Source: a virus. From it: a DNA stretch of 64,000 bases. Positions 29,006 to 62,344 of the stretch are shown piece by piece. Both the position numbers and the translations under genes were made by a program. The stretch lies in the IMG/VR virus record IMGVR_UViG_3300037420_001954, positions 9,836-73,835 of that record. One strand, written 5' to 3'. Below the pieces are notes generated by a model that worked only from the letters and a program-made list of their open reading frames with translations, was not told the origin of the DNA and did not search any database. Numbering within the stretch: position 1 is the first letter of the stretch; each line of letters starts with the position of its first letter.

Positions 29006-29039
29006 TGGCTAATTTGCTAAGTGACGCCCCGATTGTCGA

Positions 29040-29699
29040 CTAGTCTTCGGCGACGGGCTCGGCTACGACGTCAATGATTTGCTGCTGGGCGATCTTCGCG
29101 ATGATGGCGTAGGGGTCGACCGGCGGGGCGTTCGTTTGCGCACCAAGTTTGTTCGCGAGCTCGTACGCGGTCAGGCAGGCTTGCCGAAAGCGATCATCGA
29201 ACTTCGAGGCCGTGATGCCGTATTCGATCTTTTTCTTGATGTCGGTCGCTTCCGCCGCCTGGGCATGGAAGAACCGACTGAGCGAGAGCAGGTGCGCGGC
29301 CGAGCCGAGGATTGCGGAGGGCACGGGACCCATCACGCCACCGCACGCGGCTGCGAACTCGTCGCGACCGAACTTCAGCCACTCGTCGCAGGCCTTCCAG
29401 TACGCGTGGTACTCGTGGTCGTCGGCGAGCTTGACCATGCCGACGCCCGCGAGCGCCGCGCGCTTGGCCGCTTTCGCCAGGCCGCCTTTCGCGCCGAGCG
29501 CCTTGGCCGTGGCCTTGTCCGCGACGGTGCCGTCGGGGCGTCTTGCAAGCGGTGCCGGCAGGGCCGCCGGGTTGACCGGTAGGGCGTCAGGCTGCTCGTC
29601 AGGCGGCAGGGTCTCGACGCAGAGCAAGTTGTTCGACCTTGCGCCGTGCGAGGTTCGGAGTCCCATGGGTCTGTGCGTGTGGGTCAAAAAGCCCGTCAA
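29040..29699 (-). CDS. Candidate terminase small subunit
   Basis: Positional call only (directly upstream of terL); helical; start uncertain. Confidence 0.45.
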   Translation of the reverse strand: MTGFLTHTHRPMGLRTSHGARSNNLLCVETLPPDEQPDALPVNPAALPAPLARRPDGTVADKATAKALGAKGGLAKAAKRAALAGVGMVKLADDHEYHAYWKACDEWLKFGRDEFAAACGGVMGPVPSAILGSAAHLLSLSRFFHAQAAEATDIKKKIEYGITASKFDDRFRQACLTAYELANKLGAQTNAPPVDPYAIIAKIAQQQIIDVVAEPVAED

Positions 29700-30336
29700 A
29701 ACGCGTACTTGGCGATTGCTGGGCCGTGGCGGGGTCTAGGAACGCTTTTTGCTTCCGACCCATATCGGTGGGTGGTTTTTGACCGAAAACCGTTTTACGG
29801 GCCGGTTCTGTTCGATTGCGAGGGGGTCTTGAGGGCGACCGCCAGGTCGTAGCCGGCCTGGAAGGTCTCGGCCACGACCGGCTCGTCGAGCCACCAGGCC
29901 ATGATCACGTACTTTTCGTCGATAATTTCGACGTCCATGTCCAAGGAATGCAGCAATTCGGCTCGTTTTCGTGAGATCGAGGCGATTCGGCGCGGTTTTT
30001 CGCGGCTTTTACGAGTTCGGAGCAGGGACGACGCCGGTTTTCGTAAGTACCGCGCAGTTGGCGACCCCGTGGGGACGTCGTCGGAAACCTTGGCTCCTAC
30101 CGGTATCTAAGCCGAGGCAGCAAGAATCGTAAAACGTGAGCGATTACGAGCAGTTAGAGGCGCGCCGGACGGAGATATGTGCGAAAAACACGGGGTTTTT
30201 GGGTCGGTCGGCGGCGCGGGCGGTCGGCGAAAGGTGAGACCTTGTATTACATAGTACAGCCATGTAAGTATTTGTATTGAATCTAGTATCGTTCGATCCT
30301 AGTCACGATCACAAGGCACTCGGCTCTGTCACTCCA

Positions 30337-30368
30337 CACCCCCTAGGTACTCTGTACCTAAGGGGGTG
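30337..30368. repeat. Inverted repeat CACCCCCTAGGTAC-tct-GTACCTAAGGGGGTG
   Basis: 14-bp arms with one bulge and a 3-nt loop, read directly. Confidence 0.85.
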
Positions 30369-30725
30369 GTCATGAGAGTGTGACCCGGGAACGGGAACGA
30401 AGGCGCGTCAAATGCAGTTTTGGCGGCGTTTTTTGGTGTTGTATAATACAAGCACACACGTACCCATGTAGACTGCAACCGGGAACGAAAAATCGCGGCC
30501 GATTCGTAGATCGACGCACTGCGGCTACGAGACGATCTGGCTGTGTTTGTATCGTTCCCGTATCGGGAACGCGGGTACGATACCGTTTTACGAGAGATCG
30601 ACAGGTCACGATTTCCACGAACAGGCCCAAATTTCAAAATTCCTGGGCTCGCACGGGCGTTCCCGCACCGTACCATAGGTTTTCGGCCTCCGTTCTGATC
30701 GGCGCCGACGGCCCCCAGAACGCCA

Positions 30726-30781
30726 AACTATCCCGACTGTAATTATCGAGGGCCACGCCAATAATTACAGTCGGGATAGTT
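30726..30781. repeat. Perfect 21-bp inverted repeat with 14-nt spacer
   Basis: AACTATCCCGACTGTAATTAT (30726-30746) and ATAATTACAGTCGGGATAGTT (30761-30781). Confidence 0.95.
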
Positions 30782-30801
30782 ACGTGTAGGCGTACGTAGG
30801 T

Positions 30802-31635
30802 CTAGGTAGACGCTGGCGGGAGGTTCGAGGGCGTCCTGCGCACGACACCTTGCGGCAGCTCTCCGCGTTTAGCTTGACCCGTCGCCAAATCGAATTTGCC
30901 CGCCTCGATGGCGTGGAGGATGCGCTGGACCGAATCGAGGTTCCATTTGCTCGACCCGCGCGGCGTAAGCAGACCCGAGGCGTTCAAGCGCTCCACCGTG
31001 CGGCGCTGCGAGAGCTTGTCCTTGAAAATGGCCTCGTGCACGGCCAAGACGACCTCTGGCGCCACGATGTCCTCGACGCGGCGCTGGCCGAGGTACTTGA
31101 CCGGCTCGCGACCTGCCGCGCGCTCGGCGGTGATGCGCCTTTTCACGTGGCTCAGGGCGTCTTTCGTGCGCTCACAGGTCATCTCGCGGTTGAACTCGTT
31201 GATCGCCGCGAGCATGGTGCGCATCAGCCTGCCCGACGGCGTGGAGACGTCGAAGGACTCCTTCACGGTCGAGAGCAAAAGCCCGCCGCGGTTAGGGTCG
31301 ACGAGCTCGAGGAGATCGGTCACTGAGCGCGACACGCGCGAAAAGTCGTAGGTGATGACCACGACCTCGTAGCCCTGCACCTCGAGTTCGGCCCGACGGT
31401 CGAGCAGGGCGGCCATCTGAGGGCGCGCGGCCGGCGGCAACGACCCCGACAGCCCCTCGTCGCGGAAAACGCGGTCTACGGCCAATCCTGTGCGCTCGGC
31501 GAGGAACCGGCACTGGGCCTCCTGCGAGTCGAGCGAGACGCCTTCCTCTGCCTGCTGGCCGGTCGATACGCGGGTGTACACCAAGGCCACGCGCGGGCGG
31601 TTGGCAGGGGGCGGGACTGGGGTTTTACGAGCCAT
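30802..31635 (-). CDS. Serine recombinase (resolvase-type catalytic domain plus short C-terminal DNA-binding domain)
   Basis: YTRVSTGQQ (catalytic Ser), DEGLSG, ARPQM, FSRVSRS, TPSGRLM; start re-called at ATG 31635. Confidence 0.92.
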   Translation of the reverse strand: MARKTPVPPPANRPRVALVYTRVSTGQQAEEGVSLDSQEAQCRFLAERTGLAVDRVFRDEGLSGSLPPAARPQMAALLDRRAELEVQGYEVVVITYDFSRVSRSVTDLLELVDPNRGGLLLSTVKESFDVSTPSGRLMRTMLAAINEFNREMTCERTKDALSHVKRRITAERAAGREPVKYLGQRRVEDIVAPEVVLAVHEAIFKDKLSQRRTVERLNASGLLTPRGSSKWNLDSVQRILHAIEAGKFDLATGQAKRGELPQGVVRRTPSNLPPAST

Positions 31636-31797
31636 CTGGAGGCACAATGGCATCTGCCGGTCGACAGGTCAAGGCCTCGACCTGAAGCCAGGTCAGTTAC
31701 AGCGTGCCTGTACTCGGATCTTTTTAGCCTCTGGGGCAATTTTCGGGGGGCCTCTCTCCACCCCGCGCGCGCGACCCCCCGCACCGGCCTCGAGCTC

Positions 31798-32038
31798 GGC
31801 ACGGACCGTGCAATGAGACGGAATCACGACGCGATGGCACGGACAATGATCGTGCCAACGGCCGAGCGACCGGCCTAACGAACGTCTGACAGGTCAGCCC
31901 TATCTACATCCCGCGCGAGCGTCGCCTCGATGGCACGGACAATGATCGTGCCAAACTCGCACGCGATACTCTCAGGCGTCTCCTGGCGGCGCGCTTATCT
32001 ACTCTTCGCGCGTGCGCTCACTAGGCACGGTACGTGCA
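31798..32038. repeat. Four GCACG...CGTGC dyads, including a perfect 27-bp direct repeat
   Basis: GGCACGGACCGTGCA 31798-31812; CGATGGCACGGACAATGATCGTGCCAA at 31832-31858 and 31928-31954; GGCACGGTACGTGCA 32024-32038. Confidence 0.85.
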
Positions 32039-32102
32039 TGACCTCGAGCTAGCGCGCTAAGTCTATGATATCATTCACTAGACAGTGTCAAGTCGTCCGG
32101 GC

Positions 32103-32221
32103 GTGTCAAAACGGACACAATGCGTGTCAAAAACAGACACAACAGATAACCATAGGTAATCACAAGTCAAAGATCGCGTAGTCGAGCTACTATCCCGATT
32201 GTGCCGTGTCTAGTTTGACAC
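32103..32221. promoter_or_regulatory. Three operator-like dyads GTGTC-N6/7-GACAC
   Basis: At 32103-32118, 32124-32140 and 32206-32221, in an AT-richer divergent intergenic region. Confidence 0.7.
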
Positions 32222-32228
32222 GCATGGC

Positions 32229-32475
32229 GACCGGCCGACCTGGCGAAGCCAGCGAAACTACGTGACCGGCCGACCTGGCATCGACCGTGCTTAGGCCCTA
32301 GTCCACGATGCCCACCGCGAACCTCTACACGGCTACCCCGGCCCTCTCTGACGTCCGCACGGCCGCGGCGAACCGCGTGCTCGCGGCGATCGAAGCGCTC
32401 CGCGCCTCGAAAAAGACCGCGTCGAAGTGAAAAGCGACCGGCCTAGTCGATTCTGACTTGACCGGCCGACCTGGC
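32229..32475. repeat. Three identical 16-mers GACCGGCCGACCTGGC
   Basis: At 32229-32244, 32264-32279 and 32460-32475. Confidence 0.85.
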
Positions 32476-32514
32476 GGAACCAAGATACCCGAACCGAACG
32501 AACGGAGCACGAAC

Positions 32515-32730
32515 ATGAATCTCGACCTCGACAGCCTCTCTGCAGAGATCACCACGCACTTTGTGTGGGCCGCCCCGGCTAACACGATCCAGAAAGTCAC
32601 CTACGAAGCGTACTCGAATCTCCTCGGTATGCGTGCCATCGAGCACACCGACTATCCCGAGCTGGCGAGCGAGGACGTCGCGCTCAAAGCCGCGCTCCTG
32701 GAAGCGGACCCGAGCGCGACCGAGTGGTGA
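32515..32730 (+). CDS. Hypothetical early protein
   Basis: GGAG upstream of ATG 32515; 71 aa. Confidence 0.65.
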   Translation: MNLDLDSLSAEITTHFVWAAPANTIQKVTYEAYSNLLGMRAIEHTDYPELASEDVALKAALLEADPSATEW

Positions 32731-32999
32731 CCCGCCGAGACCAGGACGAAACGCGCGAAAGCGCGTCCGCACGTAAGGCGTGCGCTGACGAGTCCAAGCG
32801 AACGAGGCGAAAGATGAACACGATCCGAGTGGTTACGAACCCGAGCCGTCACTCGTGCAAGCACACGAGTGACGGCGCTCTCAAGTCTGCCCTGCAACAC
32901 AATGACCCGAACAGCTATGCCTGGTCGTGTGTGCAAACTACCCGCGAGGGCGGTACGCCTCGCTTCGCTCAATATATGGGTATCGGAGGCTTCGCGTGA
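32724..32999 (+). CDS. Hypothetical early protein
   Basis: 91 aa, overlaps both neighbours. Confidence 0.45.
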   Translation: MVTRRDQDETRESASARKACADESKRTRRKMNTIRVVTNPSRHSCKHTSDGALKSALQHNDPNSYAWSCVQTTREGGTPRFAQYMGIGGFA

Positions 33000-33319
33000 A
33001 GTCGTCCACGGTGCATATCCTGGCCTCGGCCGCGGCCATTATCGGGGCGTTGCTCACGATGGCATCGGACGCCGACGCGAAACCGAAACACGACGGCCGA
33101 CTGGTCGAGAAAGACTGGCCCATCGTGTACCGCACCGACGTGGCCCGCGCGGACGGCGCGAAGGGTACTTGCCCCGTGCGTATCAGCACCGACGGGAAGG
33201 AATGGCCTAGGCCCCAAACTAATTACGTGTGGGTTGGCCTAGATGCGAATTGCGAGGCCTCGGGTTTGGCAGTGCACGAGAACGTGACGCGGAATAACGC
33301 GGACCCGAACCAGCGCTAG
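32996..33319 (+). CDS. Putative secreted/periplasmic protein
   Basis: GTG start; signal peptide ending ADA-KPK. Confidence 0.6.
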   Translation: MKSSTVHILASAAAIIGALLTMASDADAKPKHDGRLVEKDWPIVYRTDVARADGAKGTCPVRISTDGKEWPRPQTNYVWVGLDANCEASGLAVHENVTRNNADPNQR

Positions 33320-33374
33320 TTAGTTAGCGGCCCTTGGCCGCTAGCGAGCCACCGCGCCTTCACTAATAACTATA

Positions 33375-33430
33375 TATAGCCCGTAACGGCCGCGCCTCGA
33401 GAGGGGTTTGCGGCCTGGGGCACTGTAACC
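33375..33430 (+). promoter_or_regulatory. Start-associated hairpin H1 ending CTGTAACC-ATG
   Basis: TATAG/CTGTA, CCC/GGG and GGCCGC/GCGGCC pairings; apical CCTC-GAGA-GGGG. Confidence 0.65.
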
Positions 33431-34036
33431 ATGCCCACTACCAACGATACCCGTGCGTCCCTTGCCCTCATACTCGCCGCGGCGACTGACCTCGATTCGG
33501 TGGACTTCTTTCTGTCGGATTCGGATCGGCCGCTAACGCTAATCAACGAGGCGGGATCGTTGTCCGATACTTCGGCCTTTTTCCTCGCCGGTTTCGAGTT
33601 TGGCCCATCGTGGATTATCCACGTGGACGCGTACCGAGGCGCTGGTTTTGAGCCTGCGTATGAGGCTTGGGTGGATGCGTTGCCCGAGATCGATGCGGAG
33701 GACTTGCCCGAGGCGTATACCGATCCGCGCGACGAGGAAAACCGCACTTTCGATGATATCGCCCGCGAGCGAATGCACACCGCAAAGCCTTGCCCGCAAT
33801 ACCATGAACGGGAGGCTTGGGAATCGTACCAGGCAGAGCGAAAGGCGCTAGCGAAACGCTTGCTCGAGGAGTGCGTGGAAGCCGCGCGAGCGAATTGTGA
33901 GGACTGGCCTGAAGTGGCCGAGGGCTATCGCGAGGACAGCAACGGCCGGGTGAAAGACCTTGGCCACTACGAAAACTTCTATGAGGCCGACTTGGCCGAG
34001 ATCGAAGTGCGCCCGAAAGCCAAAAAGGAGGGATGA
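33431..34036 (+). CDS. Acidic hypothetical early protein
   Basis: 201 aa, Asp/Glu-rich. Confidence 0.8.
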   Translation: MPTTNDTRASLALILAAATDLDSVDFFLSDSDRPLTLINEAGSLSDTSAFFLAGFEFGPSWIIHVDAYRGAGFEPAYEAWVDALPEIDAEDLPEAYTDPRDEENRTFDDIARERMHTAKPCPQYHEREAWESYQAERKALAKRLLEECVEAARANCEDWPEVAEGYREDSNGRVKDLGHYENFYEADLAEIEVRPKAKKEG

Positions 34037-34063
34037 ACAACGACTAGCCACTAAACCAAAAAC

Positions 34064-34122
34064 GGTTACACCCAGCGCGCCTTGGCCTTTATCGGTCGAT
34101 GCGCGCTTAGGGTGCTGTAACC
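34064..34122 (+). promoter_or_regulatory. Start-associated hairpin H2 ending CTGTAACC-ATG
   Basis: GGTTAC/GTAACC, ACCC/GGGT and AGCGCGC/GCGCGCT pairings. Confidence 0.7.
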
Positions 34123-34851
34123 ATGGACATCAAGTGCGTAGTGTGTGGGGAGCCTTGGGATGCGTACGGCGTGAATCACGGCGATATGCTGCCTTGGGAG
34201 GCCAAGTTATTCAAAGCTGGTGCGGGTTGTCCGTCGTGTGAAGGCGTACCCAATGGGTATGAGCCGGCGACGATGGATGACATCGAGAACGGAGACGAGG
34301 ACCCGATCGAGCGCATCCACGCTCGCCTTGATCATGAATCTGGCAACGCGCCTAAGTGGAAGCGTCCCGAGGACCCGGTCTTGTGGGAGTGCGCCGGATG
34401 CGGCGTGCAAGCTATCAAAGACATCGATACTGGAGACTTGGCTTACCGAGTCCCGTACAAGTCGAAGGCACGTAGCTGGTACAGCAGCCATCCGTTTTCG
34501 TGCAACGAGCCGGATGAGGAGCCGGCGCACGTTTTCGACGATGAAACGGCCGTGTGCGAGTTTTGCCTCTCGCACTGCGATCATTGCGGCGAAGCCATGT
34601 GCACGTACGTGGAAGGCTTGGACGGGTTCTACCTGCAGAACCATGACGTGACGTTGTGCGGTGAAGATTGCCTGTGCGCATGGGAGGATGAAGAAGCCCA
34701 AGAGCTTTGGCGTACAGGTTTCACCGACGCGGAGCGACTAGAAGCCATTCGCGATGGCCTATACGACGTCGAATACTACGATTGGAAAGACCTCTTGGCC
34801 CAAGTGCGCGGGCGTTACTTCCGCGGCTGTGCAAGTGAGCTAATCGGCTAA
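34123..34851 (+). CDS. Acidic, Cys-rich (multiple CxxC) early protein
   Basis: CVVCGEPWD, CPSC, CAGC, CEFCLSHCDHC; 242 aa. Confidence 0.8.
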   Translation: MDIKCVVCGEPWDAYGVNHGDMLPWEAKLFKAGAGCPSCEGVPNGYEPATMDDIENGDEDPIERIHARLDHESGNAPKWKRPEDPVLWECAGCGVQAIKDIDTGDLAYRVPYKSKARSWYSSHPFSCNEPDEEPAHVFDDETAVCEFCLSHCDHCGEAMCTYVEGLDGFYLQNHDVTLCGEDCLCAWEDEEAQELWRTGFTDAERLEAIRDGLYDVEYYDWKDLLAQVRGRYFRGCASELIG

Positions 34852-34873
34852 AGGCAAAGGCGGCAAACTACAA

Positions 34874-34934
34874 TTACAGCCCCACAAGAGCTCGGTTTGG
34901 CCATGCGTCGAACCGGGCTAGGGGCGCTGTAACC
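34874..34934 (+). promoter_or_regulatory. Start-associated hairpin H3 ending CTGTAACC-ATG
   Basis: TTACAGC/GCTGTAA, CCC/GGG and GCTCGGTT/AACCGGGC pairings. Confidence 0.7.
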
Positions 34935-35378
34935 ATGCAAAAACTGACCAACCGAGAAGTGCCTTGTGACTGGCGCGTTATCCGAGTGAATTGGACTCGT
35001 GAATGCGGCGAGGCGTTTACTAAGGAGCGCCAGATCAAAGAGTTAGGTATCTACTACCTAGTGGACGTGAACCTTCATGTTCATATCTGCTCTTTTACGC
35101 CGGTCTATGAAGCTTGGCCTATGTGCGCCTACGTCGTTTTCGAAAGCGACGACGCCGCAGACAGAGACGAGGGGGAAACGGAATTGGAATTGCTCAATTC
35201 AGAGGAGGCCTGCTCGTACTTTGGTACGGAGATCGGCCTCGCGCCTGGCTCTAGCAGGCCCTTGTCCGATTACATGCTTGCGGATGAGCAAGAGCCTGAG
35301 GAGTCAGACGAGGACTACCGACGCCGCGTGGCGGATCAGGCTCGCGAATACTTTGCAGGCAACCCCTGCGAATTCTAG
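34935..35378 (+). CDS. Acidic hypothetical early protein
   Basis: 147 aa with an E/D-rich C-terminal half. Confidence 0.8.
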   Translation: MQKLTNREVPCDWRVIRVNWTRECGEAFTKERQIKELGIYYLVDVNLHVHICSFTPVYEAWPMCAYVVFESDDAADRDEGETELELLNSEEACSYFGTEIGLAPGSSRPLSDYMLADEQEPEESDEDYRRRVADQAREYFAGNPCEF

Positions 35379-35385
35379 GAGCGAC

Positions 35386-35565
35386 GTGAAAACCACCTAC
35401 CGATCATTTGGCCGCGGGGTCGCGGTCCGTTGGGATAACGCCAAACAGCAATACGAGGTCTTGGTCCGCGGCTCGAAGGTGTACCGGACCGCGGAGAAGC
35501 GTAACGCATACGACTATGCCGAATCGCTGCTAGGCGGGTCTCACGATAACGATGGAGGCGAGTAA
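35386..35565 (+). CDS. Hypothetical early protein
   Basis: GTG start after AGGAG; 59 aa. Confidence 0.55.
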   Translation: MKTTYRSFGRGVAVRWDNAKQQYEVLVRGSKVYRTAEKRNAYDYAESLLGGSHDNDGGE

Positions 35566-35759
35566 TGGTCGAGGTCTTTCAGCACCCACAAGACTACCAA
35601 CTAGAGCCCTACGAGGACGGCACGCCCCGCGAACCGGGTTGGTATTACTGGTACTTGGAGCCAGGGTGTTTGCCGGATACCGAACCGCTCGGCCCTTTCG
35701 ATTCGGAGGAAGAGGCCTTGGCTAATGCAGAAGCTGAAGCGGACGATCACTACCCGTAG
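35565..35759 (+). CDS. Acidic hypothetical protein
   Basis: 64 aa; GWYYW...PLGPFDSEEEA. Confidence 0.7.
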   Translation: MVEVFQHPQDYQLEPYEDGTPREPGWYYWYLEPGCLPDTEPLGPFDSEEEALANAEAEADDHYP

Positions 35760-35816
35760 TGGCCAATTAGCCCGCGTGTGCCCTAACCGGCGCCGCGGGC
35801 TTGGCCGGCTGTAACC
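35757..35816 (+). promoter_or_regulatory. Start-associated hairpin H4 ending CTGTAACC-ATG
   Basis: GGCCAA/TTGGCC and AGCCCGCG/CGCGGGCT pairings. Confidence 0.7.
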
Positions 35817-36395
35817 ATGACCATTTTACGCCAAGGGTTTGGGGGATACGTTTCCGCGGGCGACTGCCTTAGCGCCGAGCACGAGGGTTTCACGATCGTC
35901 GCCACGCTGCACGCCGACGATGACCAAGACCCGCCGTGGGAGCGCGAGGACGGCCACGGGCCCGTGTACACGACGAAGCACCCTAAAGCGGGCTGGCGTC
36001 GGCTGACCTACGAGGCCGATCCCACCTACTACTACGATTACGAAGGCGCCTTGGCCTTGGCCATGCGCGACCATTGGGGGCCGCGAGGCGGGGATAGGCC
36101 GGGGCTCTCCCGTGAGGACAACGCCAAGCTGGCGGTAGAAGAGGATTACGAGGCCTTGCGCGCGTGGTGCGAGGACGAATGGCGCTACTACGGCGTGGCC
36201 GTGACCGTGTCCAAGGCCGGCGTCCAATTGACGGGCGAATACGATCACGCGGTTTGGGGGATCGAGGGCAATTACCCCGGCGGCGATAACTCTTACTTCC
36301 CGGAAGTAGCGAATCAGCTCGCCGAAGAGGCTTTGGACGCGGCGAAAGAGACCCTGAAAACGTTGTGCGAGTGCGAAGGAGTCGACCATGTCTGA
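35817..36395 (+). CDS. Acidic phage early protein
   Basis: 192 aa; PPWEREDGHGPV...LRAWCEDEWRYYGV...VWGIE. Confidence 0.8.
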   Translation: MTILRQGFGGYVSAGDCLSAEHEGFTIVATLHADDDQDPPWEREDGHGPVYTTKHPKAGWRRLTYEADPTYYYDYEGALALAMRDHWGPRGGDRPGLSREDNAKLAVEEDYEALRAWCEDEWRYYGVAVTVSKAGVQLTGEYDHAVWGIEGNYPGGDNSYFPEVANQLAEEALDAAKETLKTLCECEGVDHV

Positions 36396-36888
36396 TAGGA
36401 AACTTGCGAGCTACTTCACGACGGTCGAGCGCGTCACGCCGAATACCAGGCTGCAGGTCTGGTGCTTGACCGACGCCGCGCCGCAATGGCTCCGTGATGC
36501 CGTGTACGCGGCCCACTACGACGGTAAGGACCTCCCGAACGACTGGATCTACTCCGAGGTCCGCGACGTGTGCCTTGCCATCGACGATGAGCAATTCGAC
36601 GCCAATGAGGACTACCGCCAAGACCACGGCCAGATTCACGAGTACGCGGACGCGGCCGTCGATATCTACACGCGCGGCTTGTACCAGTGGCAAGCGGACA
36701 TGTGCCAAACGGACACCTACGCGTACGCCGAGGAGCGCTTGGCCGATATGGGCAGTGACGACGCGAAGGGTGAGAAGCGCGTGGCCATGCTCCAATACTG
36801 CGCGATCGAGTACATCGCGGAAACCGTCGTGAACGCTTGGGCGGAATCGCTCGACGCGGACGACGACCAAGAAGAAAACGACGAGTGA
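36388..36888 (+). CDS. Ocr-like DNA-mimic anti-restriction protein
   Basis: HGQIHEYADAAVDIYTRGLY resembles T7 gp0.3 [20 protein letters not shown] (compared from memory); highly acidic with an acidic tail. Confidence 0.65.
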   Translation: MSDRKLASYFTTVERVTPNTRLQVWCLTDAAPQWLRDAVYAAHYDGKDLPNDWIYSEVRDVCLAIDDEQFDANEDYRQDHGQIHEYADAAVDIYTRGLYQWQADMCQTDTYAYAEERLADMGSDDAKGEKRVAMLQYCAIEYIAETVVNAWAESLDADDDQEENDE

Positions 36889-36965
36889 CCCGCACGGCCG
36901 ACTCGAGGCCGCTCGGCCCCTTACCAAACGCGCGGGTGACGCCCGCCCCCACTAAAAACCCCATA

Positions 36966-37024
36966 GCCCGCTTGGCAGTCGCCCGCCCCAAGGCGCGCGG
37001 TCGGTTCGATTCCGACGACGGGCC
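36966..37024 (+). ncRNA. D-armless tRNA-like element
   Basis: T arm GTCGG-TTCGATT-CCGAC; acceptor GCCCGcT/GaCGGGC; no D stem and no clear anticodon loop. Confidence 0.35.
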
Positions 37025-37059
37025 CTACGTCCAGCGAATTACCCCACTAACGAGTACCC

Positions 37060-37293
37060 ATGCGCATCGACCCCAAAGACGTACAGGACGCACGCCTCGA
37101 CGCACACGCGATCAAGGTCTTGGCCGAGCTGCTGATTCAGCGCATCCAGGAAGATGGGAGCGTGCTCGGCGCCGAGGGGTTTTGGCTCGATCTGAACGCG
37201 ATCGAGGCGATGGTGCGGTCGTTGCGCAATTACCCCGTAATCGAAACCAACGAGCCGAGCGACGTGCCGGCCCCTGCTACCGACGAGGACTAG
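37060..37293 (+). CDS. Hypothetical protein
   Basis: 77 aa, co-oriented in the early operon. Confidence 0.65.
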   Translation: MRIDPKDVQDARLDAHAIKVLAELLIQRIQEDGSVLGAEGFWLDLNAIEAMVRSLRNYPVIETNEPSDVPAPATDED

Positions 37294-37297
37294 GCGA

Positions 37298-37537
37298 ATG
37301 AAACTCGTAGACGAAGCACTGTGCGTGGAAGTGCATATCGGTAGCGTCGAAGACTTGGCCAAAGCGGTCGAGCGCTTGCGCGAGCACGCCATCTTCAATT
37401 CGCCTAGTGACGAGGTCGACTCCGAGCCTTTTGCGGAGCAATTCTTTCTTGCCGCCGTGGCCTTGCTCGATCAGGCGCACCGAAACCTGATGTTGGCCGA
37501 GCTGCATCTGCGACGCGCGCGGAGGCCTGTGCCGTGA
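37298..37537 (+). CDS. Hypothetical protein
   Basis: 79 aa. Confidence 0.65.
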   Translation: MKLVDEALCVEVHIGSVEDLAKAVERLREHAIFNSPSDEVDSEPFAEQFFLAAVALLDQAHRNLMLAELHLRRARRPVP

Positions 37538-37779
37538 GAACGAAACGGAAGCAAAAACGAAAGGCGCGTTTACCCGCTCGCCCTAAGCCCGCTACGCGAG
37601 CCACGAGGCCAGACCCGTTTGGACGCTCGATGCCTGATCTAGTGGAGGGAGAGGAGCGCGATCAGCTTTGGTTTGAGGACATGTGCCCTTGTTGCCTCGA
37701 TCGTCTTTACGAGATTGAGGAAAGCAAACGCGCGAAAGCCTACGTGGATTTGTATCCACATTTGAACGGAGTGCTCTAA
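37534..37779 (+). CDS. Hypothetical protein
   Basis: 81 aa, GTGA coupling. Confidence 0.55.
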   Translation: MRTKRKQKRKARLPARPKPATRATRPDPFGRSMPDLVEGEERDQLWFEDMCPCCLDRLYEIEESKRAKAYVDLYPHLNGVL

Positions 37780-38045
37780 TGACCGACGTAACCGCAAAAG
37801 ACTACCGCATCGTCCTTATCGCCTTGGCCGTGCGCGGCCCGATGGACGAGGCCTTGGGCCAGTTGGACGCCATCCTCGACGCGGGCGCGATCCAAGACGA
37901 CCTGGACAACTACGCAGGCTGCGAGGTCTTGGCCTCGGGCGTGGGCGTCTACTCGAGCGAAGATGGCACGGGCGACTTGGTCACCGAGGTCGCGCAAGCG
38001 GCGGATGACTGGGCCGGTGACGAGCTGGCGAAGGTGGGCGAATGA
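37779..38045 (+). CDS. Hypothetical acidic protein
   Basis: 88 aa, TAATG coupling. Confidence 0.65.
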   Translation: MTDVTAKDYRIVLIALAVRGPMDEALGQLDAILDAGAIQDDLDNYAGCEVLASGVGVYSSEDGTGDLVTEVAQAADDWAGDELAKVGE

Positions 38046-38233
38046 AAACGTGGGAAGAAACGGTGGCGGCGATGCCGCTCGACGAGGCCAAGATCCAGAC
38101 CGCAATCGCCGCCTACAAGGCCATGTGCGGGAGTCTCGACAATGACGTCCATATCGCTTGGACAGATGCCGCCGAGGCTTTGAACGAGCGCGAGAAGATC
38201 GAGCTGAATGCGCGTTTGGTGGCTTTGCCGTGA
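38042..38233 (+). CDS. Hypothetical protein
   Basis: 63 aa, ATGA coupling. Confidence 0.65.
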   Translation: MKTWEETVAAMPLDEAKIQTAIAAYKAMCGSLDNDVHIAWTDAAEALNEREKIELNARLVALP

Positions 38234-38973
38234 GCGCTCCGGTCGAACAACTCATCCGAAACTTCGGCCGTAGGCCCCGTGCACTGGACTTGTTCTGTTG
38301 CGCGGGTGGGGCGTCGCGGGGCTTGGCCGACGCCGGCTTCGAGGTGCACGGTATCGATATCGAGGACCAGCCCGAGTACCCCTACCCGACGCGTTTCACG
38401 CGGGGTTCGGCCTTGGCCGTCGACGTCGAGTACTTGCAGACGTTCGATCTGATCTGGGCATCGCCCCCTTGCCAGAAATTCACCGCGTACAAGCGACGGC
38501 CGGGCCATGTGCTCCCCAGGCTCAATTTCATTCCAGCCACACGAGAGCTCCTCAAAAAGGCAGGCGCGCCTTACATCATCGAGAACGTGACCGGCGCACG
38601 AGCCGAGCTATCGCCCGACGCGGTGACGCTTTGCGGGAGTATGTTTGGCCTCGACGTACGACGCCACCGGTTGTTCGAGTGCTCTTGGCCGATCCACAAG
38701 TCCGAGCGCCCCAAGTGCCGGCACGCGCTCCAAAAGCCGGGCCGATTTCCAGGCGCCACGAACCGCGCGCCGAACAGCCGTGCCACGGTCGAGGTGGGCG
38801 TTTGGCGGATCCCGCTCGACGTCCAGCGGAAGGCCATGGGTATCGATTGGATGAGCCTGGAGAAGCTTTCGCAGGCGATCCCTCCCGCGTACTCGGAGTG
38901 GCTCGGCAAGAGCGCCTTGGCCTATATCCAGCGAACAAGTACCGAGCAACAGGTTGCTGGCCGAGTCACATAA
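38230..38973 (+). CDS. Short DNA (cytosine-5)-methyltransferase
   Basis: LDLFCCAGG (motif I), ASPPCQ (catalytic PC), IIENV (motif VI), RRHRLF; start GTG 38230. Confidence 0.88.
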   Translation: MSAPVEQLIRNFGRRPRALDLFCCAGGASRGLADAGFEVHGIDIEDQPEYPYPTRFTRGSALAVDVEYLQTFDLIWASPPCQKFTAYKRRPGHVLPRLNFIPATRELLKKAGAPYIIENVTGARAELSPDAVTLCGSMFGLDVRRHRLFECSWPIHKSERPKCRHALQKPGRFPGATNRAPNSRATVEVGVWRIPLDVQRKAMGIDWMSLEKLSQAIPPAYSEWLGKSALAYIQRTSTEQQVAGRVT

Positions 38974-39006
38974 ACGCACCGAAGCGGAGTAAGGGAGAAC
39001 GATAAC

Positions 39007-39324
39007 ATGGGTTTTTGTAGCGGCGACAATGACGAGGACGACAAGGTTTGGCACGCGGCCTGGGATCACGCGCCCGCCGAGCTGACCGATAGCGGCAAGG
39101 ACTTGTTCGCGGACGGCGCGAAGTGGGGCGCCGAGTATGCGCTCAAGGCCGTGCTGGGGCTGTTCTCCAAGCACGGCCAGGCGGAGAGCATCTTCCTCAC
39201 GCCCCAGCCGGAGCACTACGTCTACACGTTCACGATCCTGGACGCGTTGGCGGAACAAGGTATCGCCACGAAGGACGAGCTAGGGGCTTGGTTCAACGCG
39301 GCGCAAGAGGCAAACGGGCGATGA
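39007..39324 (+). CDS. Hypothetical protein
   Basis: 105 aa, GGAGA upstream. Confidence 0.65.
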   Translation: MGFCSGDNDEDDKVWHAAWDHAPAELTDSGKDLFADGAKWGAEYALKAVLGLFSKHGQAESIFLTPQPEHYVYTFTILDALAEQGIATKDELGAWFNAAQEANGR

Positions 39325-39512
39325 GCAACAACGTAAAGATTTCAGTGAACGCGACTCCGCACAGAGACACGGCCAACAGCTACCCGATACCGGTGACGTT
39401 CGAAGCGTCGCCAGATGGCGAGTGGGTGGTCTTGGACGTGCGCGAGCCGGAACGAACCTTGACGTTCACCCGCGCCGCTTGGGACCGCATCGTAGCGGCA
39501 TTGAAGCTATGA
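39321..39512 (+). CDS. Hypothetical protein
   Basis: ATGA coupling; 63 aa. Confidence 0.6.
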   Translation: MSNNVKISVNATPHRDTANSYPIPVTFEASPDGEWVVLDVREPERTLTFTRAAWDRIVAALKL

Positions 39513-39817
39513 GCTACCTAGTCAGCGAGCGAGGGCACCCACTCTTGCTCCAACGCCTACCGCGCTCAGGTGAGCGACCCGTCGTCACGGTCGAGTGCTA
39601 CGAGAAGTGGTACCACCTCTACCTCGTCTACAAGATCCACGACGAACTTGCCGTCGAAGCAACGCCGTTCCCCGAGCACGACACCCTTACTCCGTACATC
39701 GACCACGTGCCTAACCCGGCGGTCGTGAAGGCGTGGGCTGAGTCCAAGGGGTACTACCTCGACGAGCTGGCCTACCAGATGATGATCGGGCGCTGGGAAT
39801 TGGCTAGGGAGGAATGA
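39509..39817 (+). CDS. Hypothetical protein
   Basis: ATGA coupling; 102 aa. Confidence 0.6.
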   Translation: MSYLVSERGHPLLLQRLPRSGERPVVTVECYEKWYHLYLVYKIHDELAVEATPFPEHDTLTPYIDHVPNPAVVKAWAESKGYYLDELAYQMMIGRWELAREE

Positions 39818-40218
39818 CGGAAGACACGCCCGAGTGGCTTGAGTTGATCGAACTCGCCCGGCAGGCTTCGGTACGACCGGTTTACGAGCCGGCCTTGGAC
39901 GTGCTCACGGATCGGCTGCTCGAGTTGGGCCTCATCAAGCCGCTCTTCCACAGCCCCAAAAACAAGAAACGCGTCCAGCGACAACTACGTCGGGACGCGC
40001 TCAAGTGGGCCGATGCGGTTCACCCGCCTCGGCTTCAGTGGGGGATCTACGTCAATGGCGTGCTGTTGGAGTTGGGCTACGACACTGAGACCGCGGTGTT
40101 GGGCTACTACACTGAGACCGCCGCGTTGAGCCCTGGCCGACTCCGTGTGTCGCAAATAGACGAGCCGTCGCGCACTCGAGCCTATCGGGGTGAAAGGTCA
40201 ACTCTTCGATGGCCGTGA
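39814..40218 (+). CDS. Hypothetical protein
   Basis: 134 aa; GGAGG RBS; last gene of the + block. Confidence 0.55.
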   Translation: MTEDTPEWLELIELARQASVRPVYEPALDVLTDRLLELGLIKPLFHSPKNKKRVQRQLRRDALKWADAVHPPRLQWGIYVNGVLLELGYDTETAVLGYYTETAALSPGRLRVSQIDEPSRTRAYRGERSTLRWP

Positions 40219-40341
40219 CCTTGAAGCCTGCCTGGGCGTAGCGCCTGGCGTCGCGCTCGTCGAGTAGCAGCCGCACGCCCAGGCTGGAGCAAGGCAGACC
40301 GTAAACCAGCCACTTGGGCGTGTTCTCGGGCGTGGCGTCGT

Positions 40342-40638
40342 TCAAGGCTCGAACTCGACTCGGATCTTGGTGCCGTAGGGGTTGTCTTGGAGGTGCTTAG
40401 ACAACCGAAGGGCCATCTCCCCATACGCTCGAAACGTGAAAACGCCCTCCCAAGGAGTCATAGCCAAAACTTGCCCGCTCCAATCACGCATCAAGGGCTC
40501 GCGGTCGATTCGCCAATCGGTGAATTGGGCCACGGCCTCGACCGCAATCGGCTCGGGCTTGGGTGGCGACCACAGGCCCAGGGACTTGGCCCTAGTCTCG
40601 TCGCGCCAACGGTCTTCGGGTGCTTGGTACGTCATCAC
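40342..40638 (-). CDS. Hypothetical protein
   Basis: 98 aa, coupled minus-strand block. Confidence 0.6.
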   Translation of the reverse strand: MMTYQAPEDRWRDETRAKSLGLWSPPKPEPIAVEAVAQFTDWRIDREPLMRDWSGQVLAMTPWEGVFTFRAYGEMALRLSKHLQDNPYGTKIRVEFEP

Positions 40639-40892
40639 GCCGCCTCCGACTGACCAATCAGGTGGTCGTAACGACGCCGAAGGTCGTCTACTGGCATCGT
40701 GTTGGCGACTACGCGCGTTTCGATGAAGTGGTGCTTACACAGGTACTCCGCTGCGAATCGCTCCGCGTCCCGAAGGACGTCAAAGTGTCCTCGCTCGATT
40801 GCATGCCACGGCCCAGGCGGGTGGTACATACCCTCGCCGACTGTGCGGTACTCGGCGGTGAATAGCATTGTTCGTGTTTCCGTCCACATCAC
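40635..40892 (-). CDS. Hypothetical protein
   Basis: 85 aa, coupled. Confidence 0.6.
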   Translation of the reverse strand: MMWTETRTMLFTAEYRTVGEGMYHPPGPWHAIERGHFDVLRDAERFAAEYLCKHHFIETRVVANTMPVDDLRRRYDHLIGQSEAA

Positions 40893-41086
40893 GCCGCCTT
40901 GCCTGGGGCAAAAACGATCTCGGTGATGATTCGACCGAGCCCAAGGTCTTCGAACTCGTTATTCACGCTGGTCACGATCGTCCTCCCGTCCGGCAAACTC
41001 TGAGTCATCGAGCGGATACCGGGCTTAGGCATAGGCTCGCGGTCGTCCCACCCGTGGATGTCAAGCATTTGTAGGAGGCACATCAC
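40889..41086 (-). CDS. Hypothetical protein
   Basis: 65 aa, coupled. Confidence 0.55.
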   Translation of the reverse strand: MMCLLQMLDIHGWDDREPMPKPGIRSMTQSLPDGRTIVTSVNNEFEDLGLGRIITEIVFAPGKAA

Positions 41087-45972: not shown

Positions 45973-46047
45973 GTTCGTATATCCGCCGTATCGAGAACGA
46001 GTGCCAGGCGCCAAGCACGACTCGAAGACACGGCGGATATACGAGAC
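45973..46047. promoter_or_regulatory. Divergent pair of GCA-N16-CGGATATAC promoter-like motifs
   Basis: One copy on each strand, each ending 4-5 nt before a start codon (45972 and 46048). Confidence 0.7.
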
Positions 46048-46317
46048 ATGAACGATTCGATCTTCTCCACGGTCTCGACCAACACCAACACGACCAAGCG
46101 CACCAGCAAGCCGCGCGCCCCGAAGACGCTCTTCGCGCTCGTCGATGAGTACGGTATCTGCGATACCGCCCCGAAGAAGGCGGACCTGGTTCGGTACGCG
46201 GGTGACGGCGACAAGATCGTCAAGTACACGCTCGCGCCCGTCGTCGCGAAGGCCAAGAAGGCGTCGGCGAAGACCGCGCGCAAGTCCACGCGTAAGGGTA
46301 CGAAGCAGGGCCAGTGA
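46048..46317 (+). CDS. Small basic (Lys-rich) protein
   Basis: 89 aa; AKAKKASAKTARK histone-like tail. Confidence 0.7.
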   Translation: MNDSIFSTVSTNTNTTKRTSKPRAPKTLFALVDEYGICDTAPKKADLVRYAGDGDKIVKYTLAPVVAKAKKASAKTARKSTRKGTKQGQ

Positions 46318-62311: not shown

Positions 62312-62344
62312 GCAGCGCCTGATCACGCGGCGGATATACGAACC
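62312..62344 (+). promoter_or_regulatory. GCA-N16-CGGATATAC motif upstream of sigma gene
   Basis: caaGCA-gcgcctgatcacgcgg-CGGATATAC-gaacc-ATG; same spacing as the two copies at 45973-46047. Confidence 0.7.

What the first reader, a model, noticed from the sequence alone, without database searches (positions are those of the whole stretch)
33375..35819. Four early genes each preceded by a ~60-nt hairpin ending in CTGTAACC-ATG, divergent from a serine recombinase
Seen: the starts at 33431, 34123, 34935 and 35817 all carry CTGTAACC directly before ATG. In each case it is the 3' foot of an imperfect, bulged inverted repeat of 56-61 nt whose interior differs between copies, so structure and core are conserved but sequence is not. 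The same CTGTAA core occurs in the 21-bp inverted repeat beside the recombinase. Known: T7 early genes, including ocr, are separated by RNase III hairpins; integron attC sites are ~60-nt bulged hairpins in arrays divergent from their recombinase, but have AAC...GTT polarity (here it is GTT...AAC) and use a tyrosine integrase (none seen). Inference: (a) RNase III-type processing or translational-control sites giving short-leader mRNAs, or (b) a cassette-shuffling array of anti-defence genes served by the serine recombinase or another enzyme.
Basis: partly seen in the sequence, partly recalled or inferred. Interest (0 to 1): 0.85.

Follow-up and report, generated by a model that had tools for sequence, protein, structure and literature searches.

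The report
Repeated RNA hairpins masking early-gene starts
Four early genes of an uncultured soil phage each begin right at the foot of a copy of a repeated RNA hairpin, probably an mRNA-processing or translation-gating signal like those between phage T7's early genes, and here it has lost its ribosome-binding site.

Summary
CTGTAACCATG occurs four times (0.25 expected). These are the only CTGTAACC in the 81.9-kb phage genome, and each opens a real ORF. Each lies at the 3' foot of a 55-59-nt hairpin of 19-23 bp that folds far better than shuffles or the genome's own windows.

The hairpins are copies of a stop-to-start intercistronic module. The sense strand folds better than the antisense strand, with G·U pairs and compensatory changes, which points to RNA rather than DNA.

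The module belongs to an undescribed family. A syntenic relative (L006) and otherwise unrelated GC-rich phage contigs carry the same 3' box, GGCTTGGGGCG. There it continues as TTGGAGG (Shine-Dalgarno), a short spacer and ATG. In this phage TTGGAGG is replaced by CTG in all four copies, so these genes start without a Shine-Dalgarno while most neighbouring early genes have one.

The anatomy (lower stem, 2-nt 3' bulge, 11-13-bp upper stem) matches T7-type RNase III sites. That is my best reading (0.45); cleavage is inferred, not shown.

The integron-like or serine-recombinase cassette reading is not supported. Four soil metagenomes hold the array unchanged, there are no joints at the cores, and the shared CTGTAA is an unremarkable 6-mer.

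Earlier notes of this scan describe similar modules in other soil phages.

The parts
33373..33427 (+). Hairpin copy 1. Helices: TATA/TGTA 4 bp, GCCC/GGGC 4 bp, GGCCGC/GCGGCC 6 bp, GCCTC/GGGGT 5 bp. Loop GAGA. The foot lies 53 nt after the upstream stop.
   Evidence: -27.9 kcal/mol, z -2.2, 3 G·U pairs, antisense -20.6
33423..33433 (+). Box CTGTAACC plus ATG of the 201-aa gene (33431-34036). No Shine-Dalgarno.
   Evidence: Homologues of this gene in L006, L007 and L009 are also hairpin-led.
34064..34122 (+). Hairpin copy 2. Helices: GGTTAC/GTAACC 6 bp, ACCC/GGGT 4 bp, AGCGCGC/GCGCGCT 7 bp, TTGGCC/GGTCGA 6 bp. The box is fully paired up to the ATG.
   Evidence: -33.9 kcal/mol (63 nt; -35.1 for the 73-nt stretch), z -5.3
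34115..34125 (+). Box CTGTAACC plus ATG of the 242-aa, 16-Cys zinc-finger-like gene (34123-34851).
   Evidence: The start is fixed by homologues. Relatives have GGAGG before the same start.
34874..34932 (+). Hairpin copy 3. Helices: TTACAGC/GCTGTAA 7 bp, CCC/GGG 3 bp, then a 13-bp upper stem. Loop CATGC.
   Evidence: -35.2 kcal/mol, z -5.1, antisense -25.7
34927..34937 (+). Box CTGTAACC plus ATG of the 147-aa gene (34935-35378). Two small genes with Shine-Dalgarno sites follow, at 35386-35565 and 35565-35759.
35757..35811 (+). Hairpin copy 4. Helices: TAGT/GCTG 4 bp, GGCCA/TGGCC 5 bp, AGCCCGCG/CGCGGGCT 8 bp, GTGCC/GGCGC 5 bp. The 5' foot starts with the upstream stop codon TAG.
   Evidence: -37.3 kcal/mol, z -3.7
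35809..35819 (+). Box CTGTAACC plus ATG of the 192-aa gene (35817-36395, phrog_11104). The next gene, 36388-36888, is coupled to it with a Shine-Dalgarno.
   Evidence: In L006 the 36388-like gene has its own hairpin.
33317..33345 (+). Boundary before the array: TAGTTAGTTAG (stops in three frames) followed by a perfect short hairpin.
30802..31653 (-). Serine recombinase, 283 aa, divergently oriented. Context only; no link to the hairpins was found.
30726..30781 (.). Perfect 21-bp inverted repeat with a 14-nt spacer just past the recombinase stop. It contains CTGTAA. Context only.
   Evidence: (I1)

Best explanation
The four sites are copies of a repeated stop-to-start RNA module in the phage's rightward early operon.

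Anatomy. Each copy is a two-part hairpin: a lower stem of 8-10 bp, a small asymmetric internal loop with a 2-nt bulge on the 3' side, an upper stem of 11-13 bp, and a 4-6-nt loop. Its 3' strand is a conserved box, GGCTWGGGGCR-CTGTAACC, that runs straight into the start codon.

Family. The module is a member of a wider, undescribed family in GC-rich uncultured phages. There the same box continues as TTGGAGG (Shine-Dalgarno), 2-13 nt and ATG. In this phage TTGGAGG has been replaced by CTG in all four copies, so these genes initiate without a Shine-Dalgarno.

Proposed mechanism. The hairpin hides the translation-initiation region. Most likely a host RNase III-type double-strand endonuclease cuts it at the bulge about one helical turn below the loop, as at the T7 early R sites. 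The upstream message would keep a protective 3' hairpin. The downstream message would begin with a 14-15-nt Shine-Dalgarno-less leader (GGGGCRCUGUAACC-AUG). That leader would be translated in a system that, judging from this phage's own leaderless-type promoters, does not depend on Shine-Dalgarno pairing.

Shown: the motif, the fold, the strand bias, the family relationship, and the absence of a Shine-Dalgarno.
Inferred: co-transcription of the four genes, the cut, and the mode of translation.
For: - Motif and fold statistics.
- The sense strand is more stable than the antisense strand in 4 of 4 copies here and in 22 of 24 copies in the group, with 2-6 G·U pairs per sense fold.
- Compensatory changes between copies. 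In the upper stem, position 4 is G-C, U·G or C-G and position 7 is C-G, G-C or C-G. The middle helix is GCCC/GGGC in most copies but GGCCA/TGGCC in copy 4.
- Each hairpin has 19-23 bp, with a bulge 11-13 bp from the loop. E. coli RNase III substrates typically show two helical turns, and internal loops or bulges restrict cutting to one strand and leave a protective 3' hairpin (PMC1540722).
- No sigma-70-like promoter and no hairpin-plus-T-run terminator lies in 33300-36400 on the + strand.
- The syntenic relative L006 (same gene pair, same PrimPol/PD-(D/E)XK divergent pair) has five such hairpins ending GGCTTGGGGCR-TTGGAGG-N-ATG.
- The same box plus hairpin plus ATG occurs in L013, L015 (x3), L016, L018, L020/L022 (there ...TTGGAGG-TAACC-ATG), L021 and L025.
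- L007 and L009 have arrays of hairpins whose 5' foot is CUCC-like and whose 3' foot is the Shine-Dalgarno.
- Ten of 14 other early starts have a Shine-Dalgarno 4-mer, against 0 of 4 hairpin-led starts.
- The GCA-N16-CGGATATAC promoters place GATATA at -12 to -7 of the A of two ATGs (a third copy lies before a minus-strand start), which predicts leaderless mRNAs in this phage.
Against: - There are no RNA data: every listed run holding the sequence is DNA, so co-transcription and cleavage are untested.
- The host is unknown, so its RNase III rules cannot be applied.
- The phage encodes no RNase III of its own.
- Stable predicted hairpins are common in this 62% GC genome. A loose scan gave 790 of them, so energy alone would not single these out.
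- A 14-15-nt leader without a Shine-Dalgarno is neither leaderless nor canonical, and nothing shows how it would recruit ribosomes.
- Exact conservation of a 20-27-nt box across unrelated phages is more than RNase III is known to require. It hints at another sequence-specific partner or at horizontal spread.
Confidence: 0.45

Rival explanations
1. Translation gate without cleavage. The hairpin masks the start region. It is opened by the ribosome finishing the upstream gene (translational coupling by unmasking), or by a trans-acting protein or RNA that recognises the conserved box.
For: In L007, L009 and most L006 copies the 5' foot starts 0-9 nt after the upstream stop, and the Shine-Dalgarno is paired in the 3' foot. 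In copy 4 here the stop TAG is itself the first pair of the foot. The box is conserved far beyond what a helix needs.
Against: In copies 1-3 the foot lies 53, 27 and 22 nt after the stop. That is beyond the reach of a terminating ribosome. No candidate RNA-binding protein was recognised among the early genes.
Confidence: 0.2
2. A mobile or recombinogenic regulatory cassette, like the PeSLs of T4-type phages. On this view the repeated box mainly matters as a substrate for recombination that shuffles early genes.
For: Gene content between hairpins differs from L006: two hairpin-led modules are inserted between the zinc-finger gene and the 36388-like gene. Between otherwise unrelated contigs the element is the only shared DNA. 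Homology between L016 and L021 breaks at the element. All four copies here share the same CTG-for-TTGGAGG replacement, which needs spread from one copy or gene conversion.
Against: There is no promoter in the cassette, although PeSLs are defined by one (PMC4122927). Copies here share only 12 identical bases. Four metagenomes show no rearrangement or joint at the cores. Breaks at gene boundaries are the general rule in mosaic phages.
Confidence: 0.1
3. Transcription terminators or attenuators after each early gene, of the U-tract-less kind proposed for GC-rich bacteria, producing a gradient of early expression.
For: The upper stems resemble the GC-rich intergenic hairpins of Streptomyces phages. 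Each follows a stop codon.
Against: No T-run follows any copy. There is no promoter to restart transcription before the next gene. Pairing extends into the start region, which a terminator does not need.
Confidence: 0.08
4. An integron-like cassette array. The hairpins would be attC-like single-strand recombination sites used by the neighbouring serine recombinase or by another enzyme.
For: The sites are ~60-nt imperfect hairpins in an array, divergent from a recombinase. The 6-mer CTGTAA also lies in the inverted repeat next to that recombinase.
Against: The sense (top) strand folds better. The ends do not match the attC cores. The conserved end is a ribosome-binding region in relatives. Serine recombinases act on double-stranded sites (established knowledge). 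The only tyrosine recombinase is more than 35 kb away and reaches 27.5 bits against a 220-bit cut-off on the XerA/integron-integrase model. No joints were seen in four metagenomes. CTGTAA is not enriched.
Confidence: 0.02

Closest known systems
RNase III processing sites between the early genes of coliphage T7/T3 (R0.3, R0.5, R1, R1.1, R1.3); similar sites in Bacillus phage SP82 early mRNA (recalled from memory)
   Same: About 60-nt imperfect hairpins between early cistrons. Roughly two helical turns interrupted by an internal loop or bulge. Copies share sequence around the bulge. Each lies just upstream of the next gene's start region.
   Different: T7 sites are followed by a normal leader with a Shine-Dalgarno. 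Here the hairpin foot abuts the ATG and there is no Shine-Dalgarno. Cleavage is not shown, and there is no sequence similarity.
[quoted passage not shown]
   Same: A short conserved asymmetric box lies immediately before the start codons of a subset of non-structural genes. About half of these are preceded by imperfect inverted repeats with a variable spacer. All copies have one orientation.
   Different: The SAS (GGGATAGGAGCCC) contains the Shine-Dalgarno, whereas the box here does not. ESAS arms are 17 bp with a 4-13-bp spacer. The sequences are unrelated.
PeSL (promoter-early stem-loop) cassettes of T4-type phages (PMC2839356, PMC4122927)
   Same: Small repeated regulatory cassettes lie between non-essential early genes of unknown function. 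Gene content between cassettes varies among relatives.
   Different: PeSLs carry a sigma-70-type promoter and a short terminator stem-loop. No promoter is present here, the stem is long, and no rearrangement was seen.
Integron attC sites
   Same: Arrays of ~60-nt imperfect hairpins in which structure is better conserved than sequence.
   Different: There are no RYYYAAC/GTTRRRY ends, no adjacent IntI, the opposite strand preference, and the conserved end is a translation start region.
Hairpins that sequester a phage gene's start region until processed or bypassed (lambda N leader with RNase III; T4 lysozyme gene e on early transcripts); recalled from memory, not checked here
   Same: The start region is paired in a stable hairpin, and expression requires removal of the 5' strand.
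   Different: Those are single sites with a Shine-Dalgarno, not a repeated family.

Membership tests
T7-type RNase III processing site | Hairpin of about two helical turns (about 20-22 bp) | tested here: met
   19, 23, 23 and 22 bp. Criterion taken from PMC1540722.
T7-type RNase III processing site | Internal loop or bulge that limits cutting to one strand, about one turn below the loop | tested here: met
   A 2-nt 3' interruption (CU, TA, AG) lies 11-13 bp from the loop in copies 1-3; copy 4 has only a 3-nt 5' bulge there. A UU bulge is present in most family members.
T7-type RNase III processing site | Lies within a polycistronic early transcript | tested here: inconclusive
   No promoter-like or terminator-like site lies between the genes, but no RNA run holds the sequence.
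T7-type RNase III processing site | Cleaved by RNase III | not testable with these tools
   This needs an enzyme assay or end mapping.
Integron attC | Conserved R''/R' ends (RYYYAAC ... GTTRRRY) | tested here: not met
   The 5' feet are TATA, GGTTAC, TTACAG and TAGT. The 3' end is CTGTAACC.
Integron attC | Adjacent integron-type tyrosine integrase | tested here: not met
   The only PF00589 hit is at genome 6740-7351, more than 35 kb away. It scores 27.5 bits against a 220-bit cut-off on the XerA/integron-integrase model.
Integron attC | The recombinogenic fold is on the bottom strand relative to the cassette genes | tested here: not met
   The sense strand folds better in 4 of 4 copies.
PeSL | Sigma-70-type early promoter inside the cassette | tested here: not met
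   No promoter-like site at or near the four sites.
PeSL | Insertions and deletions between close relatives with breakpoints in the cassette | tested here: inconclusive
   There is no close relative: the best homologue has 56% protein identity. The population copies are identical. Distant relatives differ in gene content.
SAS/ESAS (cluster K) | 13-bp box GGGATAGGAGCCC with at most 2 mismatches before starts | tested here: not met
   The box here is CTGTAACC. This is an analogue, not a member.
Intrinsic terminator | GC-rich hairpin followed by a T-run | tested here: not met
   None is predicted at the four sites. The hairpins are followed by ATG.
Any Rfam family | Covariance-model match | tested here: not met
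   In 29500-38000 there are only two chance-level rows (E about 3) and nothing near gathering score.
GGCTTGGGGCG-box hairpin family (defined here) | Hairpin whose 3' strand ends in NGGGCTWGGGGCR and runs on to a start codon within 25 nt | tested here: met
   The alignment of 18 elements from 9 contigs has its invariant or nearly invariant columns in this box. Copy 4 deviates (TTGGCCGG), with a compensating 5' strand.

The most novel reading that the evidence does not exclude
The hairpin is a device for Shine-Dalgarno-independent initiation. One possibility is that a nuclease trims the message to a very short or absent leader at UAACC-AUG, making leaderless-type mRNAs by processing rather than by promoter placement. 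The other is that the helix, by bringing the upstream stop and the next AUG together, hands terminating ribosomes across its base, a shunt-like re-initiation in a bacterial system. The concerted loss of TTGGAGG in all four copies would then mark a lineage that switched its early genes from Shine-Dalgarno-led to Shine-Dalgarno-free initiation.
Probability: 0.1. Interest if true: 0.8.

Novelty: new variant of a known kind. Interest (0 to 1): 0.5.

Why it matters
Repeated hairpins between phage early genes have been known since T7, and similar 'start-associated' repeats in mycobacteriophages remain unexplained after 15 years. This case adds three things.

1. It defines a new, uncatalogued element family. 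Its 20-27-nt box is the only DNA shared by otherwise unrelated GC-rich phages, which implies a conserved partner or horizontal spread.
2. It offers a natural experiment. The same module occurs with a Shine-Dalgarno in relatives and without one here, in front of the same gene.
3. The module sits in a phage that also seems to make leaderless mRNAs.

Together these give a compact, testable system for asking how structured intercistronic RNA sets the timing and level of early, probably host-takeover, genes. They also allow a test of whether translation can start at the foot of a hairpin without a ribosome-binding site.

Tried and rejected
Searches for close relatives, all unsuccessful:
- blastn and tblastn against GenBank phages.
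- IMG/VR searches with three early or structural proteins.
- Bacterial genomes searched with a profile of the zinc-finger protein.
- The box GGGGCNCTGTAACCATG in IMG/VR gave two chance hits with no hairpin.
- The best protein homologue has 56% identity, so breakpoint analysis in near relatives was impossible.

Structure-based alignment:
- MAFFT plus RNAalifold on 9 copies gave no useful consensus, because the 5' halves do not align column by column.
- The lower-stem register differs between copies. I therefore built no covariance model and read compensatory changes directly from the helices.

Ideas tested and dropped:
- An upstream ORF ending at the TAA of the box. The frames are open, but only copy 3 has an ATG (in its loop), and frames relative to the upstream gene are inconsistent.
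- A promoter or leaderless start at the box. No -10-like element lies at the right distance.
- An extended anti-Shine-Dalgarno pairing of the box. It does not fit the usual 16S 3' end (from memory, not tested).

Energy-only scan: it gave 790 hairpin-like folds, which is too permissive for a GC-rich genome. I replaced it with the window-background percentiles.

Protein function: Pfam and PHROGs gave no named function, only two unnamed PHROG families for the 35817 protein and a weak endonuclease hit for the zinc-finger protein; the Atlas gave only unnamed viral clusters. An AlphaFold model of the zinc-finger protein (pLDDT 80) has no PDB fold match.

Literature: a search for the box as a text string found nothing.


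Full report
WHAT THE WINDOW IS. The window is bases 9836-73835 of a single 81,895-bp virus contig with 62% GC. IMG/VR classes it as linear and CheckV estimates about 80% completeness. Leftward genes up to about 31650 are large ORFs without Pfam matches, presumably structural. A 283-aa serine recombinase lies at 30802-31653 on the minus strand. An 850-bp repeat-rich gap follows. Rightward genes begin at 32515. Further right lie a PrimPol-AAA helicase, a PD-(D/E)XK nuclease, a family A polymerase and a sigma-70-like protein. The DNA occurs in soil and rhizosphere metagenomes from several studies. No cultured phage or prophage relative was found, so the host is unknown.

THE OBSERVATION. CTGTAACCATG is exact at 33423, 34115, 34927 and 35809, where 0.25 are expected and no shuffle reaches four. 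No other CTGTAACC exists in the window or the genome. Each ATG is the first start of an ORF of 201, 242, 147 or 192 aa. For the second gene the start is certain, because more than 100 homologues begin with the same residues, MDIKCVVCGEPW.

The stretches upstream fold into single long hairpins of 55-59 nt and 19-23 bp. Z-scores against dinucleotide shuffles are -2.2, -5.3, -5.1 and -3.7. This genome is GC-rich and predicted hairpins are common in it; a loose scan found 790. I therefore also compared the four with all 64-nt windows of the genome (mean -19.1, sd 5.1 kcal/mol). They fall in the 4.2%, 0.43%, 0.22% and 0.09% tails. Since the windows are fixed by the motif, the joint result is far beyond chance.

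ANATOMY. All four copies share one plan:
- a lower stem in two short helices, 8-10 bp in total;
- an asymmetric interruption, 0-5 nt on the 5' side and mostly 2 nt (CU, TA, AG) on the 3' side;
- an upper stem of 11-13 bp;
- a loop of 4-6 nt.

The 3' strand is conserved: GGCTWGGGGCR, then CTGTAACC, then ATG. The base of the upper stem is AGCNCG...CGNGCT in copies 2-4. The apical helices differ between copies: TTGGCC/GGTCGA, TTTGGC/GTCGAA, GTGCC/GGCGC and GCCTC/GGGGT. Pairs are kept through changes on both sides. Upper-stem position 4 is G-C, U·G or C-G, and position 7 is C-G, G-C or C-G. Copy 4 has TGGCC where the others have GGGGC, and its 5' strand has changed to match.

The distal part behaves that way, but about 20 nt of the 3' strand are conserved as sequence.

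RNA OR DNA. Folded as RNA, the sense strand is more stable than its complement in all four copies: -27.9 vs -20.6, -33.9 vs -29.6, -35.2 vs -25.7, and -37.3 vs -35.4 kcal/mol. The sense folds hold 2-3 G·U pairs each, which become C-A mismatches on the other strand. Over 24 elements of this phage and its relatives the sense strand wins 22 times. This asymmetry is what selection on the transcript would produce. It is not expected for a double-stranded protein site or a bottom-strand recombination hairpin. No Rfam family matches.

RELATIVES. The zinc-finger-like protein (34123-34851) led to several metagenomic contigs. One of them, L006 (60% GC), is a true relative:
- it has the 33431-like gene, the zinc-finger gene and the 36388-like gene in the same order;
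- further on it has the same divergent PrimPol/PD-(D/E)XK pair.

In L006 each of five early genes is preceded by a hairpin of the same plan. The 3' strand reads GGCTTGGGGCR and then TTGGAGG, 4-7 nt and ATG. Two further copies belong to a second sequence class, in which the pairing runs from GGGAGGA through the spacer to the ATG.

L007 and L009 (about 50% GC) carry arrays of small early genes separated by 52-62-nt hairpins. These start 0-4 nt after the upstream stop. Their 5' foot is CUCC-like and their 3' foot is the Shine-Dalgarno. More distant relatives (L001, L002/3, L004, L005) pack the genes tightly with plain Shine-Dalgarno sites and no hairpins.

Scanning IMG/VR and bacterial assemblies for the L006 box found it in the same setting (hairpin, box, ATG) in L013, L015 (three copies), L016, L018, L020/L022, L021 and L025, at 65-70% GC. 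L021 and L025 are binned as Myxococcota, which is no more than a weak hint about hosts. These contigs share no recognisable proteins with the window in the stretches fetched, apart from one weak L016 hit. Between most of them the element is the only blastn similarity, 38-64 nt at 82-100% identity. An alignment of 18 elements shows the common 3' box.

In L020 the box continues as TTGGAGG-TAACC-ATG. The window's version is therefore the family box with TTGGAGG replaced by CTG, while the TAACC-ATG end is kept.

NO SHINE-DALGARNO. Of 14 other hand-checked early starts, ten have a GGAG/GAGG/AGGA 4-mer at -17 to -5. None of the four hairpin-led starts does. The same gene has a strong Shine-Dalgarno in every relative.

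Shine-Dalgarno use is low across this genome as a whole: 29 of 116 first starts against a 9% background. Three copies of GCA-N16-CGGATATAC place GATATA at -12 to -7 of the A of the ATGs at 46048 and 62345; the third lies before a minus-strand start. That is the geometry of promoters for leaderless mRNAs. This is inference from standard promoter spacing. It suggests that Shine-Dalgarno-free initiation is normal in this phage-host system.

MECHANISM. The evidence shows that the module is an RNA structure that buries the start region of the next gene. How the start region is exposed is inference.

I favour RNase III-type cleavage (0.45), for four reasons:
- the helix has about two turns;
- it is interrupted about one turn below the loop, the arrangement that in E. 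coli substrates confines the cut to one strand and leaves a protective 3' hairpin (PMC1540722);
- the sites lie between early cistrons with no promoter-like or terminator-like signal between them;
- T7 sets the precedent.

A cut at the bulge would leave a 14-15-nt leader, GGGGCRCUGUAACC, before the AUG.

Opening by the upstream ribosome is a fair rival (0.2). It fits L007, L009 and copy 4. It does not fit copies 1-3, whose feet lie 22-53 nt past the stop.

Termination is unlikely (0.08), because no T-run and no restart promoter are present.

THE CASSETTE HYPOTHESIS. Contigs from four further soil metagenomes that lie on 29000-41000 are letter-identical to the window. Between them they span all four sites, although coverage is fragmentary. 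None shows a joint at a core. Contigs hide rare variants, so this is weak negative evidence.

The following points all argue against an integron-like system run by the serine recombinase:
- the attC end motifs are absent;
- the strand preference is the wrong one;
- in relatives the conserved end is a ribosome-binding site;
- the only tyrosine recombinase is more than 35 kb away and generic;
- the recombinase next door is short and lacks a recognisable C-terminal part;
- CTGTAA is not enriched.

What remains possible is a PeSL-like side effect (PMC2839356, PMC4122927). Gene content between the hairpins differs from L006. Homology between L016 and L021 ends at the element. The identical CTG replacement in four copies needs spread from one copy or gene conversion. 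The copies here share only 12 identical bases, and there is no promoter in the module.

KNOWN OR NEW. The kind of feature is known: T7 R sites, the SAS/ESAS of cluster K mycobacteriophages (still of untested function; PMC3203893, PMC12699233) and PeSLs. This element belongs to none of them by sequence or by defining features, and it is not in Rfam.

Earlier notes of this scan describe comparable stop-to-start hairpin modules in other uncultured soil phages. The scan has therefore met this class before on other DNA.

Three things are particular here: the cross-phage GGCTTGGGGCG box, the concerted loss of the Shine-Dalgarno, and the co-occurrence with leaderless-type promoters. I rate it a new variant of a known kind, of moderate interest.

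Noticed in passing
45977-46004 (-), 46015-46042 (+), 62312-62339 (+): Three copies of GCA-N16-CGGATATAC. GATATA sits at -12 to -7 of the A of the ATGs at 46048 and 62345 (the sigma-like gene). This is the spacing expected for promoters that make leaderless mRNAs.
   Followed up: partly
33317-33345: TAGTTAGTTAG (stop codons in all three frames) followed by a perfect 9-bp hairpin with loop CTT, then an AT-rich patch. It looks like a module boundary just before hairpin copy 1.
   Followed up: partly
genome 6179-7708 (left of the window; locus L026:940-2466): A 509-aa ORF with a Phage_integrase (tyrosine recombinase) domain at 41 bits. It is far from the hairpin array and is not integron-type.
   Followed up: partly
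window 64146-64155 (146 nt beyond the window end; genome 73981): A fifth TGTAACCATG. Here TAA is the stop of gene 63545-64150 and the ATG opens an 87-aa ORF. There is no strong hairpin. It is a plain stop-restart junction with the same AACC-ATG context.
   Followed up: partly
34123-34851: An acidic protein with 16 cysteines (pI 4.3) and more than 100 unnamed homologues in phage contigs, often near pentapeptide-repeat genes (L001, L002). The AlphaFold model has pLDDT 80 and no PDB fold match.
   Followed up: partly
32515-37537: Nine of the first twelve rightward early proteins are acidic (pI 4.05-4.5), including all four hairpin-led ones. No named function came from Pfam, PHROGs or the Atlas.
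   Followed up: partly
31660-32510: The divergent control region is full of repeats: GACCGGCCGACCTGGCG three times (32229, 32264, 32460), a 32-nt repeat twice (31827, 31923), and GTGTCAAAA / TTTGACAC pieces. These are likely early promoters and operators. No sigma-70 consensus site was found on the + strand.
   Followed up: no
L013, L015, L016, L018, L021, L025: Between most of these GC-rich viral or MAG contigs the only nucleotide similarity is the 38-64-nt hairpin/box element, at 82-100% identity. Only L016 and L021 share more, and their homology breaks at the element.
   Followed up: partly
L006:437-707: The relative carries a second sequence class of the same architecture, with pairing from GGGAGGA through the spacer right up to the ATG (-39 kcal/mol, z -5.5). 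One phage can therefore hold two families of start-masking hairpins.
   Followed up: partly
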